The notes under the pieces: generated by a model
Told to the model about the DNA's origin: nothing
Databases searched by the model: none
The model's input: only the letters and a program-made list of their open reading frames with translations
Part shown: one piece after another, positions 19,101 to 21,641 of the stretch
Position numbering within the stretch: position 1 is the first letter of the stretch
Layout of the letters: each line of letters opens with the position of its first letter
Source of the DNA: a virus
Lineage: Duplodnaviria > Heunggongvirae > Uroviricota > Caudoviricetes
Strand: one strand, 5' to 3'
Length of the DNA stretch: 64,000 nt
Virus record (IMG/VR): IMGVR_UViG_2778261510_000005
Position numbers and translations under genes: made by a program

Positions 19101-19778
19101 TCAGCTGATAAGGGGAAGCCAATCCTCTGACACTTCGCGAGGTCGCGGTTTGCCGTGGAAAAAGATTATTCGGCAGTCTTTTGGTAATGCCCCATTCCCC
19201 CTGGAGTAACGCGCGCTCGCATATTTTGAACCAGGTTCCACAACATCGGCCTTGTAACTTACAAACCATCCTGGATACAGATCCTGAAATGCTGGTGTAT
19301 CATCGCCCATAACCTTTCGTAAGAACCCCTGGTCCCCCCAGCACTCAGTAGTGACACAACGAGAAATCCAACCTTCCGGATCTTGCCAGAATGAACTCCA
19401 GATATGCGCTTTAACACTATTTGGTATCCACAGGGCACCGCTGCCACGATATTGTGGATGGTAAAAATCCCTAAGCATGGTGAAGCTGGTTGGTGGATGC
19501 TCTAGGATTGGGCGTATATCACCGGCAATAACCGTGTCCAAATCCAGATAGAACAGATCATCGGTTATATCCGGTCGGAACAACTCGATTTTCGCCCACC
19601 AGCCACGGCACTTTTGCCACTGGTTGATCAATGGGACAACTTTGACGCCAGGTACATGTAAACGCTTCAGGTCTGTCAGGCAAATAATTTCATAGCCTTT
19701 TGGCAGTTGATTAACCAGCCACTGCACATCGGAAGCGTTATAGTCACCACCAGAGCGAAAAACTAAAGCAATCTTCAT
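19101..19778 (-). CDS. Hypothetical protein with DxD motif, possible GT-A-type glycosyltransferase (225 aa)
   Basis: [12 protein letters not shown] resembles the DxD sugar-nucleotide-binding motif; weak inference. Confidence 0.5.
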
Positions 19779-20473
19779 GCTGCACCATCACCTTTCACTT
19801 TCACTTTCATCAATGTCAGGTTTCCGCAAAATACGGCACCAGTGTCGATATACTGCTGATTCCAGAATGTCTTCGGGCTTTTCACCGGAGTGTGACCAAA
19901 GATAAAACGATCTGCGCCCGAAATTTCGCCACCAATATCATCCATCGAATCACTGATACGCTCGCGCGCCCAGACAACGTTGAAAAGCGGCACCTCCTTA
20001 CCGAATTGGTATTCATTATCCGGATAGTCGGCATGGGCTATAACGATAGTTTCTTGCCCCGTGTTCAACTCAATGATATAGGGCAGACGCTTTACCAGCT
20101 CCACCAGCGCCCAGGCTAATATTTCCTGATCAGTGTCCAGCATGAAGAACCATTGTCCGCCATTCATTAGCCAGTTATTCACGTTGCCATCTGGACTTAA
20201 CGCATCAATCATCAGCCGCTCATGGTTCCCCATCACTGCCCTGAACCAGGGCATCTGCAATAGTTCCAGACATTCGACATTTTCAGTACCGCGATCGATA
20301 AGGTCGCCTACCGATATCAGTAAATCCTGCGCCGGGTCAAAATCCACACGATGGAGTTCGGACATCAGTCTGGTGTAGCAACCATGCAGATCACCAACAA
20401 CCCAGACATTCCTGTATTTGGTACCGTCGATACGGTGATAAATTGTGGGTGCCATCATGTATTCTTCAGCCAT
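19775..20473 (-). CDS. Ser/Thr protein phosphatase (calcineurin-like metallophosphoesterase)
   Basis: Metallophosphatase motifs GDLHG, GDLIDRG, GNHE; P1 carries a ppp gene of this family. Confidence 0.85.
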
Positions 20474-21081
20474 TCTTTAAGAGTCATCTGCGGAATACCT
20501 CCCATTTTCCCGCATGAAACAACGTCAATCTGTTCACGCGCAGACTGGAATAACAAAGGCAGGTGACTTAGATTTTTTGGCGTGCCGCCGGAGTGAACGC
20601 GTAGTTCTTGCGTAGCGTCAACGCCCACCAGAGCTACATGTTTGAATCCGATATGGAAAGCCAGGTTCAGAGCACCATATGCACTATTGCCGCTGGCAAT
20701 TTCATTCTCATCTTCGCAAAGGCCGAAATGTGCGGACCAGCGCCACGCCCACCACTCGGGAGAATTCGTATTTTTTGGCTCCATGCCACGTTCAGCCACA
20801 CGACGGAAGCACAGAACGCCGTCTCTGACTTCACGTTCTTTAACATCGGGTAGTGCCATGCAATAACAAACACCACGGCGACGGCGGCCACGACCAACGC
20901 GCCGCATATTGTCTGGCGATGGATCAAGTGTGAAAAAATAAGAAGCGCGGTTCAGCCAGTCGATGGCCCCATTGACCGCTATAATCGGCACTCCGCGCGG
21001 CGCAACAAAGTTTGCGGCGCTTGGACCACTGCCGACGATAATAACGCGATCACTGCCTCTAAATTTATTCTTGGGAAACAT
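20455..21081 (-). CDS. Hypothetical Rossmann-like protein (208 aa), paralog of the upstream gene
   Basis: IIVGSGPSA...IIAVNGA...LVGVD pattern shared with 20979..21641; AGGAG RBS before ATG at 21081. Confidence 0.6.
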
Positions 21082-21641
21082 TGAATTGCACTGCTCCTAC
21101 TTGCATTCAAAATATGTAAATCTGCGTGTTTTTTGCGGGTATCCAGGAACTGCTGTTGCCATTTTGAAATAGACACCTGCGTTGGATTCCGTAGGGCTTG
21201 AGGGTGCGCGCCATGCCAATGAAGGCCGTTTTGCAGAGAACAGTCATAGCCGACTAATACCACTACTTCAGCCCCTGATTCAGCAGCCAGACTGATAGCC
21301 TGCGCGCCGCTATTTACCCCTTCCGCCGGTCCACAATATCGCCTGTACTCCAACGAAAATGATTTCGCCGCCGCCAGGTTGGCTGTCACTTTGCGGAATC
21401 TCCCTCCCGGTATGGTGGATCCGTATTGCTTCCACCATGACAAATCACCGGCGTATAAGGCATAAATGTCATCGAACATCTGCCAGGAATTGTTAACCGC
21501 GATGATTGAACAGCCAGTTTTTTCTATAGCAGCACAGTCCTCACGAGTGAGTGACGGACCGCTACCGACACAAAAAACAGTCCTAGTCGCCCTGCGTGGT
21601 ATGTTCATTCTCAGCTGCAGATTCAGCCTCCAGGCGAGCAT
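20979..21641 (-). CDS. Hypothetical Rossmann-like protein (220 aa), paralog of the downstream gene
   Basis: FCVGSGPSL...IIAVNNS...LVGYD; its 3-prime end overlaps the next gene by about 100 nt. Confidence 0.6.
   Translation of the reverse strand: MLAWRLNLQLRMNIPRRATRTVFCVGSGPSLTREDCAAIEKTGCSIIAVNNSWQMFDDIYALYAGDLSWWKQYGSTIPGGRFRKVTANLAAAKSFSLEYRRYCGPAEGVNSGAQAISLAAESGAEVVVLVGYDCSLQNGLHWHGAHPQALRNPTQVSISKWQQQFLDTRKKHADLHILNASRSSAIQCFPRINLEAVIALLSSAVVQAPQTLLRRAECRL

What the first reader, a model, noticed from the sequence alone, without database searches (positions are those of the whole stretch)
19101..21641. Cluster of a DxD-motif protein, a Ser/Thr phosphatase and two overlapping Rossmann-like paralogs: possible glycosylation or modification cassette
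Four co-directional genes encode a protein with a DLD (DxD) motif, a calcineurin-like phosphatase, and two paralogous proteins with a VGSGPS...IIAVN...LVGxD pattern that overlap by about 100 nt. P1 has a ppp gene flanked by uncharacterised pmg genes here, so this is probably backbone. Even so, the domain combination suggests sugar or nucleotide transfer chemistry (virion, DNA or host-target modification) that has not been assigned a function, and the long paralog overlap is unusual.
Basis: partly seen in the sequence, partly recalled or inferred. Interest (0 to 1): 0.4.

Follow-up and report, generated by a model that had tools for sequence, protein, structure and literature searches.

The report
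P1 pmgO-pmgP-pmgQ sugar-transferase cassette
This stretch is the known, non-essential pmgN-pmgO-pmgP-ppp-pmgQ operon of phage P1; three of its genes form a sugar-transferase trio found in many phages of Gram-negative bacteria, and its target has never been tested.

Summary
The window is a P1-like phage, and 19101-21641 (minus strand) is the P1 operon pmgN-pmgO-pmgP-ppp-pmgQ at 98.8% nucleotide identity. All four proteins are published as non-essential and were not among the proteins detected in P1 virions.

- **PmgQ** is a DxD glycosyltransferase with a GT8-like fold. Its closest matches are glycogenin, Gat1 and GlyE.
- **PmgO and PmgP** are distant paralogs (profile-profile probability 98.2%). 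The PmgO model has the Maf / sialyltransferase / MptE fold.
- **Ppp** is a lambda-type phosphatase with its catalytic motifs intact.

New here: PmgO, PmgP and PmgQ travel together without ppp in phages and prophages of Alpha-, Beta- and Gammaproteobacteria and Bacteroidota; a Gemmatimonadota locus has only PmgP and PmgQ. The trio often sits beside extra glycosyltransferases, sugar-type methyltransferases or a sulfotransferase. One metagenomic phage fuses PmgO and PmgP into a single protein. In HK97-like prophages the trio lies between the major head gene and the head-tail genes.

The 103-nt pmgO/pmgP overlap is genuine. It comes from a variable, unconserved C-terminal tail of PmgO, not from a frameshift or a sequencing artefact.

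Best reading: a phage glycan-building cassette, most probably acting on virion proteins. The donor (possibly host CMP-Kdo) and the acceptor are inferred, not shown. Interest is moderate.

The parts
21802..21837 (-). Promoter region upstream of pmgN. It corresponds to P1's predicted sigma-70 promoter PpmgN.
   Evidence: P1 annotates PpmgN here. The alignment of window to P1 places TTGAAC and TATGCT at 21832-21837 and 21811-21816. The consensus scan finds a second candidate, GCGACA-17-TAAAAT, at 21830-21802. These are predictions only.
21782..21798 (.). C1 repressor operator Oppp (formerly Op83), assigned by homology. It implies that the operon is repressed in lysogens and expressed during lytic growth.
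   Evidence: The P1 annotation gives 'monovalent C1-controlled operator Oppp' at the aligned position. The window differs from P1 by one base inside the operator, and by several bases just downstream of it.
21583..21738 (-). pmgN, a 51-aa protein of unknown function and the first gene of the operon.
   Evidence: ORF. P1 annotates it as pmgN. It matches phrog_2350, a family of unknown function, at 6.6e-36. A knockout is viable, yet CRISPRi scored it essential, which may be a polar effect.
20979..21641 (-). pmgO, 220 aa as annotated; the true start is probably Met13 at 21605. It is a Maf / sialyltransferase-fold transferase with invariant GPS, NSG, GYDCS and HWHGxH motifs.
   Evidence: - PHROG 4603 'alpha-2,3-sialyltransferase' at 4.4e-74, and a weak Pfam MptE-like hit.
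- AlphaFold model with pLDDT 88.9.
- Foldseek top hit is Maf 5mu5 at E 1.8e-4.
- Invariant residues are listed.
- Homolog N-termini and low pLDDT over residues 1-10 favour the Met13 start.
20455..21081 (-). pmgP, 208 aa. A distant paralog of PmgO with motifs [11 protein letters not shown] and GVDAT. It lacks PmgO's HWHGxH motif and has its own invariant His173.
   Evidence: - phrog_2111 at 2.7e-132, and a weak MptE-like hit.
- hhalign against the PmgO family gives probability 98.2%, E 3.9e-14.
- Invariant residues are listed.
- Weak or faint hits to WaaZ_KDO_III models.
- The family has 634 cluster representatives at E <= 1e-3 among 1.84 billion proteins.
20979..21081 (-). The 103-nt overlap of pmgO (3' end) and pmgP (5' end); pmgP is in the -1 frame relative to pmgO.
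   Evidence: - Coordinates are, and the overlap is identical in P1 and P7.
- Overlaps of 4-109 nt, always in the same relative frame, occur in other phages.
- The PmgO tail past the conserved LExxL helix is variable in length and has low model confidence.
19775..20473 (-). ppp, 232 aa. A lambda-type (NinI / PrpA-like) Ser/Thr protein phosphatase inserted between pmgP and pmgQ in P1-like phages only.
   Evidence: - Pfam Metallophos at 9.3e-16, PHROG NinI-like at 1.1e-112, and NCBIfam PRK11439 at 3.3e-81, which is below that model's cutoff.
- It is absent from every non-P1 cassette locus, and present alone in phage D6.
- It is 98% identical to P1 Ppp, with a 2-aa duplication.
19101..19778 (-). 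pmgQ, 225 aa. A GT-A, GT8-like DxD glycosyltransferase, predicted to be retaining and to use a UDP-hexose. Invariant residues are D36, WWxK 60-63, DLDT 79-82, GDQ 148-150, SYK 174-176 and HGxPRP 208-213.
   Evidence: - phrog_1962 'glycosyltransferase' at 7e-125.
- No Pfam hit.
- The profile of 29 homologs hits PDB 6mw5 (a GT8 family member) at E 1.6e-6 and 5gvv (also GT8) at 6e-3.
- AlphaFold model with pLDDT 95.2.
- The Foldseek top 50 are almost all GT8 structures: Gat1, glycogenin, GlyE, LgtC, WbbM and XXYLT1.
19059..19075 (.). C1 operator OpmgRa, assigned by homology. It marks the start of the next operon (pmgR-pmgS), so it bounds this operon on the 3' side.
   Evidence: The P1 annotation places it at the aligned position. 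The sequence ATTGCTCTAATAATTCC is visible immediately after the pmgQ stop codon.

Best explanation
pmgO, pmgP and pmgQ form a three-enzyme glycan-building cassette carried by phages. In P1-like phages an unrelated lambda-type phosphatase gene (ppp) has been inserted between pmgP and pmgQ.

**How it most likely works**
- The operon lies behind a C1-repressed promoter, so it is expressed during lytic growth.
- All three proteins are small and consist only of a transferase domain, with no accompanying polyprenol-phosphate transferase or flippase. They would therefore act on an acceptor reachable from the cytoplasm.
- PmgO and PmgP are a cooperating pair of Maf / sialyltransferase-fold transferases. 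In one phage they are fused into a single polypeptide. This fold typically uses CMP-activated ulosonic acids. P1 carries no donor-synthesis genes, so in E. coli K-12 the only such donor available would be host CMP-Kdo.
- PmgQ is a GT8-like DxD enzyme that would add a hexose from UDP-Glc or UDP-Gal.
- Together they would build a short oligosaccharide. Related phages extend or decorate it with extra glycosyltransferases, O-methyltransferases or a sulfotransferase.
- The most likely acceptor is a phage structural (head or virion) protein.

**Shown versus inferred**
- Shown: the identity of the genes, the folds and family relationships, the paralogy, the co-occurrence and fusion, and the genomic positions.
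- Inferred: catalytic activity, the donors, the PmgO-PmgP partnership, and above all the acceptor.

My confidence is about 0.75 that this is a glycan-assembly cassette, about 0.45 that the acceptor is a virion protein, and about 0.3 that CMP-Kdo is a donor.
For: **Identity**
- 98.8% nucleotide identity to P1 pmgO-pmgP-ppp-pmgQ, with the C1 operator Oppp upstream.

**Enzymology**
- The PmgQ profile hits GT8 Gat1 at E 1.6e-6.
- The PmgQ model (pLDDT 95) matches GT8 structures at E 1e-7 to 1e-8.
- DLD and HGxPRP are invariant in PmgQ homologs.
- PmgO and PmgP are homologous over their full length.

**Functional linkage**
- All three genes lie within 6 kb in 18 of 24 non-P1 loci; three of the six exceptions are contigs of 3.3 kb or less. 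The 18 hosts span Enterobacterales, Pseudomonas, Zhongshania, Gilvimarinus, Alloalcanivorax, Commensalibacter, Brevundimonas, Xanthomonas and Sinomicrobium; Methylophilaceae and Longimicrobiales loci carry only PmgP and PmgQ.
- P0092 is a natural PmgO-PmgP fusion.
- In adjacent pairs, pmgO is followed by an overlapping pmgP.

**Glycan context**
- Neighbours include FkbM and class-I SAM methyltransferases, Sulfotransfer_2, Nucleotid_trans-like, GT2-like and GT4-like proteins.

**Virion link**
- The cassette sits between the major head gene and the head-completion or adaptor genes in three HK97-like prophages.
- It follows a terminase or head-morphogenesis gene in others.
- In D3 and PAJU2 a PmgO-like gene lies among the head-tail genes (after the major head gene in D3, after the adaptor in PAJU2), with a methyltransferase nearby. 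PAJU2's copy is labelled 'structural protein' in GenBank.

**Precedent**
[quoted passage not shown] 2023, as summarised in PMC12363180).

**Host range**
- Every host identified makes LPS, which is consistent with CMP-Kdo as a donor.
Against: - No experiment supports any activity.
- Single knockouts of pmgO, pmgP, ppp and pmgQ plate normally, and CRISPRi knockdown has no effect (PMC9024508, PMC10695390).
- None of the four proteins is among the proteins listed as detected in the P1 virion proteome, and the passages I read mention no glycosylation.
- Neither PmgO nor PmgP reaches Pfam's gathering score for MptE-like.
- The three HK97-like cases may descend from a single insertion.
- In other phages the cassette sits in typical 'moron' positions: after the lysis genes, between the late antiterminator gene Q and the holin gene, or next to ribonucleotide reductase genes.
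- The cassette is spread over phages with unrelated virion architectures (myo-, sipho-, podo- and jumbo phages). That fits a host target at least as well as a virion target.
- In P1 the annotated promoter is a sigma-70, C1-controlled promoter, not a late promoter.
- The WaaZ link is only faint.
Confidence: 0.6

Rival explanations
1. The cassette remodels the host's lipopolysaccharide rather than phage proteins. PmgP and PmgO would act like WaaZ, adding an extra Kdo to the inner core at the cytoplasmic face of the inner membrane. PmgQ would act like the GT8 core enzymes WaaJ, WaaO or WaaI. The altered core would change the P1 receptor, which is the terminal glucose of the LPS core (from my own knowledge). 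The effect could be exclusion of superinfecting phage, less loss of progeny on cell debris, or altered envelope properties.
For: - PmgP has weak hits to WaaZ Kdo-III transferase models: NCBIfam TIGR04437 at E 0.1, and a faint precomputed hit to Pfam PF27901 WaaZ_KDO_III on the fusion protein.
- hhalign places the GxD region of both paralogs on WaaZ.
- PmgQ's family, GT8, contains LPS core glycosyltransferases, and LgtC is among its structural matches. WaaJ aligns across the DxD and HxGxxKPW motifs.
- All hosts found are LPS producers.
- The cassette moves among unrelated phage types and often occupies moron positions next to the lysis genes.
Against: - The WaaZ similarity is not significant (hhalign probabilities 22% and 14%).
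- The best structural matches for PmgQ and PmgO are protein-glycosylating enzymes: Gat1, glycogenin, GlyE and Maf.
- In P1 the genes are repressed by C1 in the lysogen, which is the state in which receptor conversion would pay off. LPS made during a one-hour lytic cycle replaces only part of the outer membrane.
- In several phages the genes are embedded among head genes.
- Outer-core structures differ greatly among the host phyla.
Confidence: 0.2
2. The enzymes glycosylate a host cytoplasmic protein or a small molecule, either to take over the cell or to counter an anti-phage defence. Bacterial glucosylating toxins of related GT-A folds inactivate their targets in this way. On this reading Ppp in P1 might be a second host-directed effector.
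For: - GT8-like and related GT-A enzymes include protein-modifying effectors, and the top matches modify proteins.
- The genes are accessory: non-essential in the laboratory on K-12, repressed in the lysogen, and expressed from an early-type promoter in P1.
- The cassette is mobile among unrelated phages.
- In P1 it sits next to a host-type Ser/Thr phosphatase.
Against: - There are no hits to known defence or counter-defence families (PADLOC).
- A multi-enzyme cassette with methyl- and sulfotransferases builds an elaborated glycan, which is unusual for an inactivating modification.
- Recurrent placement among head genes is not explained.
- ppp is not linked to the trio outside P1-like phages.
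Confidence: 0.12
3. PmgO and PmgP are not glycosyltransferases. They would be MptE- or thiamin-pyrophosphokinase-like kinases that pyrophosphorylate a small molecule, or one of them would be a catalytically dead partner. On this reading the operon is not a glycan pathway.
For: - The only Pfam family touched is MptE-like (PF01973), named after a pterin pyrophosphokinase.
- PmgP lacks PmgO's invariant HWHGxH motif.
Against: - The genes are tightly linked to a GT8-like enzyme and to other glycosyltransferases and sugar-tailoring enzymes.
- There are no pterin or thiamin genes nearby.
Confidence: 0.08

Closest known systems
Phage P1 genes pmgO, pmgP, ppp and pmgQ (P7: hdmB, hdmC, ppp, hdmD)
   Same: They are the same genes: 98.8% nucleotide identity, 98-100% protein identity, the same order, the same overlaps and the same C1 operators on both sides.
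   Different: PmgQ ends 8 residues early because of a TCA-to-TGA change. Ppp carries a 2-residue duplication. There are a few substitutions next to the upstream operator.
Maf flagellin glycosyltransferases and GT42 sialyltransferases (Cst-I, Cst-II)
   Different: PmgO and PmgP are about 190-residue catalytic cores without Maf's flanking substrate-binding domains or Cst's lid and membrane tail. Sequence similarity is below family thresholds. The phage carries no CMP-sugar synthesis genes. Neither the donor nor the acceptor is known.
GT8 retaining glycosyltransferases (glycogenin, Gat1, GlyE, LgtC, WaaJ)
   Same: PmgQ shares the GT-A fold, the DxD motif and a C-terminal H-G-x-P-(R/K)-P motif that aligns with GT8's HxGxxKPW.
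   Different: There is no hit to Pfam Glyco_transf_8 even at E <= 1. Identity to the structural matches is 11-17%. PmgQ belongs to a narrow family: only 41 relatives turned up in the word-indexed search.
Mycobacteriophage virion glycosylation operons (Che8, Corndog, Myrna; Freeman et al. 2023)
   Same: Phage-encoded glycosyltransferases modify structural proteins. Their placement near the structural genes is from my recollection of Freeman et al., not from a text I could read. This is the functional analogy I favour.
   Different: The enzyme families and the hosts (Gram-positive-type actinobacteria) differ. Glycosylation is demonstrated there and only inferred here.
E. coli WaaZ (Kdo III transferase, GT73)
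   Same: There are faint model hits to PmgP and to the fusion protein, and the GxD region aligns.
   Different: The similarity is not statistically significant. WaaZ is 283 aa and acts on the LPS inner core.
Lambda protein phosphatase (NinI) and E. coli PrpA/PrpB
   Same: Ppp has all the metallophosphatase motifs. P1's own annotation reports 64% identity to lambda phosphatase.
   Different: Here it is embedded in a glycosyltransferase operon instead of the nin region. In phage D6 the same gene, at 90% nucleotide identity, lies among small genes similar to those of lambdoid and P22-like phages.

Membership tests
P1 pmgN-pmgQ operon (Punavirus backbone) | Near-identical sequence and the same gene order as P1 79.5-82.1 kb | tested here: met
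   Megablast gives 98.8% identity over 100% of the query, and 19 P1-like records cover at least 80% of it. The annotation tables for P1 and P7 agree.
P1 pmgN-pmgQ operon (Punavirus backbone) | C1 operators flanking the operon (Oppp upstream, OpmgRa/b downstream) | tested here: met
   The aligned positions are conserved, with one substitution in Oppp, and ATTGCTCTAATAATTCC follows the pmgQ stop codon. C1 binding itself was not tested.
GT8 glycosyltransferases (PmgQ) | GT-A fold most similar to GT8 structures | tested here: met
   The model has pLDDT 95.2. Nearly all of the Foldseek top 50 are GT8 structures, at E 2e-8 to 2e-6 and TM 0.5-0.6.
GT8 glycosyltransferases (PmgQ) | Conserved DxD metal and nucleotide-sugar motif, plus the C-terminal HxGxxKP-type motif | tested here: met
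   D79-L80-D81 and H208-G209-x-P211-R-P213 are invariant in 29 homologs. They align with the corresponding motifs of 6mw5 and WaaJ.
GT8 glycosyltransferases (PmgQ) | Match to the curated family model (Pfam PF01501 Glyco_transf_8) above threshold | tested here: not met
   There is no Pfam hit at E <= 1. The only sequence-level link is through a profile of homologs, at E 1.6e-6 to one GT8 structure. I therefore call it GT8-like, not a GT8 member.
GT8 glycosyltransferases (PmgQ) | Sugar transfer from a UDP-sugar with retention of configuration | not testable with these tools
   This needs an enzyme assay.
MptE-like / Maf / sialyltransferase-fold superfamily (PmgO, PmgP) | The characteristic alpha/beta fold | tested here: met
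MptE-like / Maf / sialyltransferase-fold superfamily (PmgO, PmgP) | Match to Pfam PF01973 above the gathering score | tested here: not met
   The scores are 23.7 and 20.9 bits against a cutoff of 34.6, and cover only 27-37 residues. Some homologs do carry a precomputed PF01973 hit.
MptE-like / Maf / sialyltransferase-fold superfamily (PmgO, PmgP) | CMP-sugar-dependent glycosyl transfer, as opposed to pyrophosphokinase activity | not testable with these tools
   The fold alone does not discriminate. The glycosyltransferase reading rests on the gene neighbourhood.
WaaZ Kdo III transferase family (PmgP) | Significant match to the WaaZ models or to E. coli WaaZ | tested here: inconclusive
   TIGR04437 gives E 0.1 and 11.9 bits against a cutoff of 200. 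There is a 'faint' precomputed PF27901 hit on fusion P0092. hhalign probabilities are 22% (PmgP) and 14% (PmgO).
Lambda-type Ser/Thr protein phosphatases (Ppp) | Metallophosphatase domain with the GDxHG, GDxxDRG and GNHE motifs | tested here: met
   Pfam Metallophos at 9.3e-16, above its cutoff. The motifs GDLHG, GDLIDRG and GNHE are read directly from the translation. PHROG NinI-like at 1.1e-112.
Lambda-type Ser/Thr protein phosphatases (Ppp) | Equivalog-level match to E. coli PrpA/PrpB | tested here: not met
   The scores are 272.5 and 239.5 bits against cutoffs of 326 and 332. Ppp is a relative, not an equivalog.
Phage virion glycosylation systems | A glycan demonstrated on a structural protein and dependent on the phage glycosyltransferases | not testable with these tools
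   Only positional evidence exists: the cassette lies among head genes in several phages. None of the four proteins is among those detected in the P1 virion proteome, and the passages read mention no glycan.
Programmed -1 frameshift fusion (pmgO-pmgP) | A conserved slippery heptamer in the overlap | tested here: not met
   P1 has A_AAT_TTA and T_TTC_CCA, but 4 of the 6 other adjacent pairs examined, including the two closest in overlap length (phiNP and Chimaeribacter), have no heptamer at all.

The most novel reading that the evidence does not exclude
P1 and many other phages of Gram-negative bacteria decorate their virion proteins, probably the head, with a short glycan built in the cytoplasm by PmgO, PmgP and PmgQ. 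The PmgO/PmgP pair would use the host's CMP-Kdo. To my knowledge this would be the first protein glycosylation with Kdo and the first virion glycosylation system described in phages of Gram-negative hosts. It would sit in one of the most widely used laboratory phages.
Probability: 0.12. Interest if true: 0.75.

Novelty: new member of a known kind. Interest (0 to 1): 0.4.

Why it matters
P1 is a standard tool of E. coli genetics, yet about a kilobase and a half of its conserved backbone encodes three sugar-transferase-like enzymes that nobody has assigned a role.

This analysis shows that the three belong together and recur across phages of several phyla of Gram-negative bacteria. That turns 'three hypothetical genes' into one testable module.

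- If the acceptor is the virion, it would extend phage self-glycosylation beyond mycobacteriophages. That bears on antibody recognition and clearance of therapeutic phages and on particle stability.
- If the acceptor is LPS, it would be a new kind of phage-driven receptor remodelling.

Single-gene knockouts of these pmg genes have been reported (PMC9024508), so the decisive experiments should be cheap.

Tried and rejected
1. **Sequencing artefact or pseudogene at the overlap: rejected.** The arrangement is identical in P1, P7, SJ46, RCS47 and 80 IMG/VR contigs. Both proteins align to their family profiles end to end.
2. **Programmed -1 frameshift producing a PmgO-PmgP fusion: rejected.** pmgP is indeed in the -1 frame, and P1 has A_AAT_TTA in the overlap. 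However, the heptamers are not conserved, and a shift there would delete PmgO's conserved last helix. The constant relative frame follows trivially from an ancestral short overlap plus loss of the stop codon.
3. **ppp as part of the module: rejected** by its distribution.
4. **DNA glycosylation: no support.** No base-hydroxymethylase or DNA-binding partner appears in any of about 25 loci.
5. **Defence or counter-defence families:** PADLOC returned no hits.
6. **WaaZ membership: inconclusive**.
7. **First hhalign of PmgO against PmgP: discarded.** The fusion protein P0092 contaminated the PmgO alignment. I repeated it without P0092.
8. **Viral-contig scan with the PmgP alignment:** it returned only P1 copies and added no diversity. 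The genome-contig scan and the contig look-ups were the useful sources.
9. **Literature searches** for pmgO/P/Q, WaaZ with phage, DUF115/Maf with phage, virion glycosylation and PAJU2 found no functional study. The P1 genome paper (Lobocka 2004) and Freeman 2023 are not held in the library.
10. **Capsid sequences of two cassette-bearing prophages:** they show no obvious Ser/Thr-rich extension. A small Thr/Pro/Glu-repeat protein follows the capsid gene in L107, but I could not connect it to the cassette.

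
Full report
**What is there.** The window is a P1-like phage. Region 19101-21641 aligns over its whole length to phage P1 at 98.8% nucleotide identity (79592-82124 of NC_005856), and equally well to P7, SJ46, RCS47 and other punaviruses. On the minus strand the ORFs are:

- pmgN, 21583-21738
- pmgO, 20979-21641, 220 aa
- pmgP, 20455-21081, 208 aa
- ppp, 19775-20473, 232 aa
- pmgQ, 19101-19778, 225 aa

P1's annotation places a C1 repressor operator (Oppp) and a predicted sigma-70 promoter upstream of pmgN. 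Two further C1 operators lie right after pmgQ, where the pmgR-pmgS operon begins. These sites are conserved in the window. The unit is therefore a five-gene operon, repressed in the lysogen and expressed in lytic growth. That last point is inferred from the P1 annotation.

The DLD motif, the phosphatase, the shared VGSGPS...IIAVN...LVGxD pattern and the 103-nt overlap at 20979-21081 are all present.

**What is published.** Single-gene knockouts of pmgN, pmgO, pmgP, ppp and pmgQ plate normally and keep anti-restriction activity. None of these proteins is among those detected in the P1 virion proteome (PMC9024508; table in PMC10695390). CRISPRi knockdown of pmgO, pmgP, ppp or pmgQ has no effect. 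Only pmgN scored as essential, in conflict with its knockout. I found no paper that addresses the function of these genes. RefSeq re-annotation already calls PmgQ 'glycosyltransferase', PmgO 'alpha-2,3-sialyltransferase' and Ppp 'metallophosphoesterase'.

**PmgQ.**
- It has no Pfam or NCBIfam hit.
- It matches a PHROG family labelled glycosyltransferase at 7e-125.
- The word-indexed search found 41 relatives.
- In an alignment of 29 of them, D36, W60-W61-x-K63, D79-L80-D81-T82, G148-D149, S174-x-K176 and H208-G209-x-P211-x-P213 are invariant.
- A profile of this alignment hits two solved GT8 enzymes: the Skp1 alpha-galactosyltransferase Gat1 (6mw5, E 1.6e-6) and GlyE (5gvv, E 6e-3). The DxD motifs are aligned.
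- The AlphaFold model is confident (pLDDT 95.2).
- Its Foldseek matches in the PDB are almost all GT8 structures at E about 1e-8 to 1e-6: Gat1, glycogenin, GlyE, LgtC, WbbM and XXYLT1.

PmgQ is thus a GT-A, GT8-like DxD enzyme, but too divergent to pass the curated GT8 model.

**PmgO and PmgP.**
- Pairwise BLASTP sees only the N-terminal 36 residues (E 0.003).
- Profiles of the two families align over 164 columns with probability 98.2% and E 3.9e-14. An earlier run was invalid, because a fusion protein sat in one of the alignments.
- PmgO has invariant GPS, N50, D66, S111-G112, G131-Y-D-C-S135, H141 and H143.
- PmgP keeps the SGPS, GNSA and GVDAT equivalents. It lacks the HWHGxH motif and has its own invariant residues, including D53, R94, R114 and H173.
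- The PmgO profile also picks up Cst-II weakly at exactly the GPSL and SG...GxD motifs.
- The fold by itself does not separate sugar transfer from pyrophosphate transfer.
- PmgP has weak or faint hits to WaaZ (Kdo III transferase) models. Direct comparison with E. coli WaaZ is inconclusive.

**Ppp.** It is a lambda-type Ser/Thr phosphatase with all metal-binding motifs. It is 98% identical to P1 Ppp, with a two-residue duplication.

**The three transferase genes form a module; ppp does not belong to it.** I collected diverse loci from one-genome-per-species contigs, from contigs encoding specific homologs, and from cultured phages. I scanned them with HMMs of the three families.

- All three genes lie within 6 kb in 18 of 24 non-P1 loci. 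Three of the six exceptions are contigs of 3.3 kb or less.
- Hosts of the full trio include Citrobacter (phage phiNP), Serratia, Pseudescherichia, Pseudomonas, Alloalcanivorax, Gilvimarinus, Zhongshania, Commensalibacter, Brevundimonas, Sinomicrobium (Bacteroidota), the lytic coliphage IME392 and the jumbo phage XacN1. A Methylophilaceae and a Longimicrobiales (Gemmatimonadota) locus carry only PmgP and PmgQ.
- Ppp occurs only in the P1-like loci. In phage D6 the same ppp, at 90% nucleotide identity, stands alone among small genes similar to those of lambdoid and P22-like phages.
- One metagenomic podovirus-like phage encodes a single 376-aa protein that is PmgO followed directly by PmgP (P0092). 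This Rosetta-stone fusion argues that the two act together.
- The PmgP family is small but real: 634 cluster representatives at E <= 1e-3 among 1.84 billion proteins, several of them two-domain proteins.

**Neighbours point to glycan assembly.** Next to the trio, different phages carry:

- class-I SAM and FkbM-type methyltransferases (Zhongshania, Brevundimonas, Sinomicrobium, Longimicrobiales, Alloalcanivorax)
- a Sulfotransfer_2 protein (Gilvimarinus)
- weak Nucleotid_trans-like, GT2-like and GT4-like proteins (Commensalibacter, L104, L105, L108, IME392)

No locus carries a polyprenol-phosphate transferase, a flippase or nucleotide-sugar synthesis genes. The enzymes would therefore use host donors, and the acceptor must be reachable from the cytoplasm.

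If PmgO and PmgP use a CMP-activated sugar as their fold relatives do, the only such donor in E. coli K-12 is CMP-Kdo. This rests on established knowledge of K-12 metabolism and is an inference. All hosts found are LPS producers, which is consistent with it but does not prove it.

**Where the cassette sits.**
- In three HK97-like prophages (Pseudomonas L105, Gilvimarinus L107, Zhongshania L096) it lies exactly between the major head gene and the head-tail adaptor or head-completion genes.
- In Commensalibacter it follows the large terminase gene. In Brevundimonas it follows a Mu-F-like head-morphogenesis gene.
- In phiNP, L104 and L106 it lies between the lysis genes and the terminase genes. 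In L108 it lies between the late antiterminator gene Q and the holin gene.
- In Sinomicrobium and XacN1 it is next to ribonucleotide reductase genes.
- In D3 and PAJU2 a PmgO-like gene lies among the head-tail genes (after the major head gene in D3, after the adaptor in PAJU2), with a methyltransferase a little further on. PAJU2's copy is labelled 'structural protein' in GenBank, a label I could not verify.

This placement, the lytic-phase expression, and the precedent of mycobacteriophage virion glycosylation (summarised in PMC12363180) make a virion protein my preferred acceptor. The evidence is positional only. The three HK97-like cases may share a single ancestral insertion. Spread over unrelated virion types fits a host target equally well.

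**The overlap.** pmgP starts 103 nt before the pmgO stop codon.
- The same relative frame (pmgP at -1) is found in every adjacent pair examined. Overlap lengths are 4, 7, 7, 13-43, 37, 40, 49, 94 (phiNP), 103 (P1) and 109 nt.
- The conserved part of PmgO ends at the LExxL helix, near residue 197-202.
- The conserved part of PmgP starts at residue 12, so the constrained segments abut rather than truly overlap.
- The remaining PmgO tail is read from the alternative frame of PmgP's GSGPS-coding region. It varies from 0 to about 18 residues among homologs and has low model confidence.

The simplest account is an ancestral short, translationally coupled overlap, lengthened in some lineages by loss of the pmgO stop codon. 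Slippery heptamers in the P1 overlap are not conserved elsewhere, so I reject programmed frameshifting. The overlap is not an artefact or a pseudogene.

**Verdict.** Its reading as a glycosylation cassette is supported at the level of folds, motifs, gene linkage and neighbourhood. There are two corrections: the phosphatase is a P1-lineage insertion, not part of the module, and the overlap is a benign consequence of a variable PmgO tail.

The genes and their rough annotations are already public. What this analysis adds is the conserved PmgO-PmgP-PmgQ trio, the natural fusion, the tailoring-enzyme context and the head-gene placement.

Activity, donors and acceptor are unproven. I give about 0.75 that it is a glycan-assembly cassette, about 0.45 that it acts on virion proteins, about 0.2 that it acts on LPS, and less for the other readings. 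Interest is moderate (0.4): an uncharacterised but readily testable module in a classic phage.

Noticed in passing
window 19101-19103: A single C-to-G change (TCA to TGA) relative to P1 and P7 ends PmgQ 8 residues early (225 versus 233 aa). The lost tail lies outside the conserved domain, so the change is probably harmless.
   Followed up: yes
window about 19790-19810 (3' end of ppp): A 6-nt tandem duplication (GTGAAA) adds 'KV' to the C-terminus of Ppp compared with P1 (232 versus 230 aa).
   Followed up: partly
window 21745-21780: The short stretch between the Oppp operator and the pmgN start carries about ten substitutions relative to P1, in an otherwise 99% identical region. One substitution falls inside the operator itself. 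Whether C1 control is affected is unknown.
   Followed up: no
window 21605-21641: The annotated pmgO start, in P1 as well, is probably 12 codons too far upstream. Homologs start near Met13, and the first 10 residues have pLDDT about 49. With Met13 the pmgN/pmgO overlap shrinks from 59 to 23 nt.
   Followed up: partly
L111 (Citrobacter phage phiNP, OR565852) 4450-5094 and 5001-5621: The PmgO-like gene is not annotated at all in the GenBank record. The PmgP-like gene is annotated from an internal start that removes its GSGPS motif. The full ORF overlaps the PmgO-like gene by 94 nt.
   Followed up: yes
L003 (phage D6, MF356679) 4964-5656: D6 carries a ppp gene 90% identical in nucleotide sequence to P1's, but among small genes similar to those of lambdoid and P22-like phages (phiV10, ES18, mEp213). 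This suggests recent horizontal exchange of ppp alone.
   Followed up: partly
L107 9166-9555 (Gilvimarinus prophage): A 129-aa ORF sits directly after the major capsid gene and before the cassette. It ends in a Thr/Pro/Glu repeat (TEPTEPTEP...), a mucin-like stretch that could be an O-glycosylation substrate.
   Followed up: no
window 21583-21738 (pmgN): Published data conflict. The pmgN knockout is viable, but CRISPRi knockdown reduced plating about 70-fold. A polar or off-target effect on neighbouring genes is possible, yet the downstream genes are themselves non-essential.
   Followed up: no
L114 (phage PAJU2, AP009624) 4974-5543; L113 (phage D3) 5691-6409: PAJU2's PmgO-like ORF010 is labelled 'structural protein' in GenBank. 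In D3 the homolog is annotated as two overlapping pieces (orf6.5 and orf7), although tblastn aligns it in a single piece. Both phages lack detectable PmgP.
   Followed up: partly
L112 (jumbo phage XacN1) 7573-8946: The PmgQ-like domain is the C-terminal half of a 438-aa protein (ORF373). The N-terminal 240 residues are unassigned.
   Followed up: no
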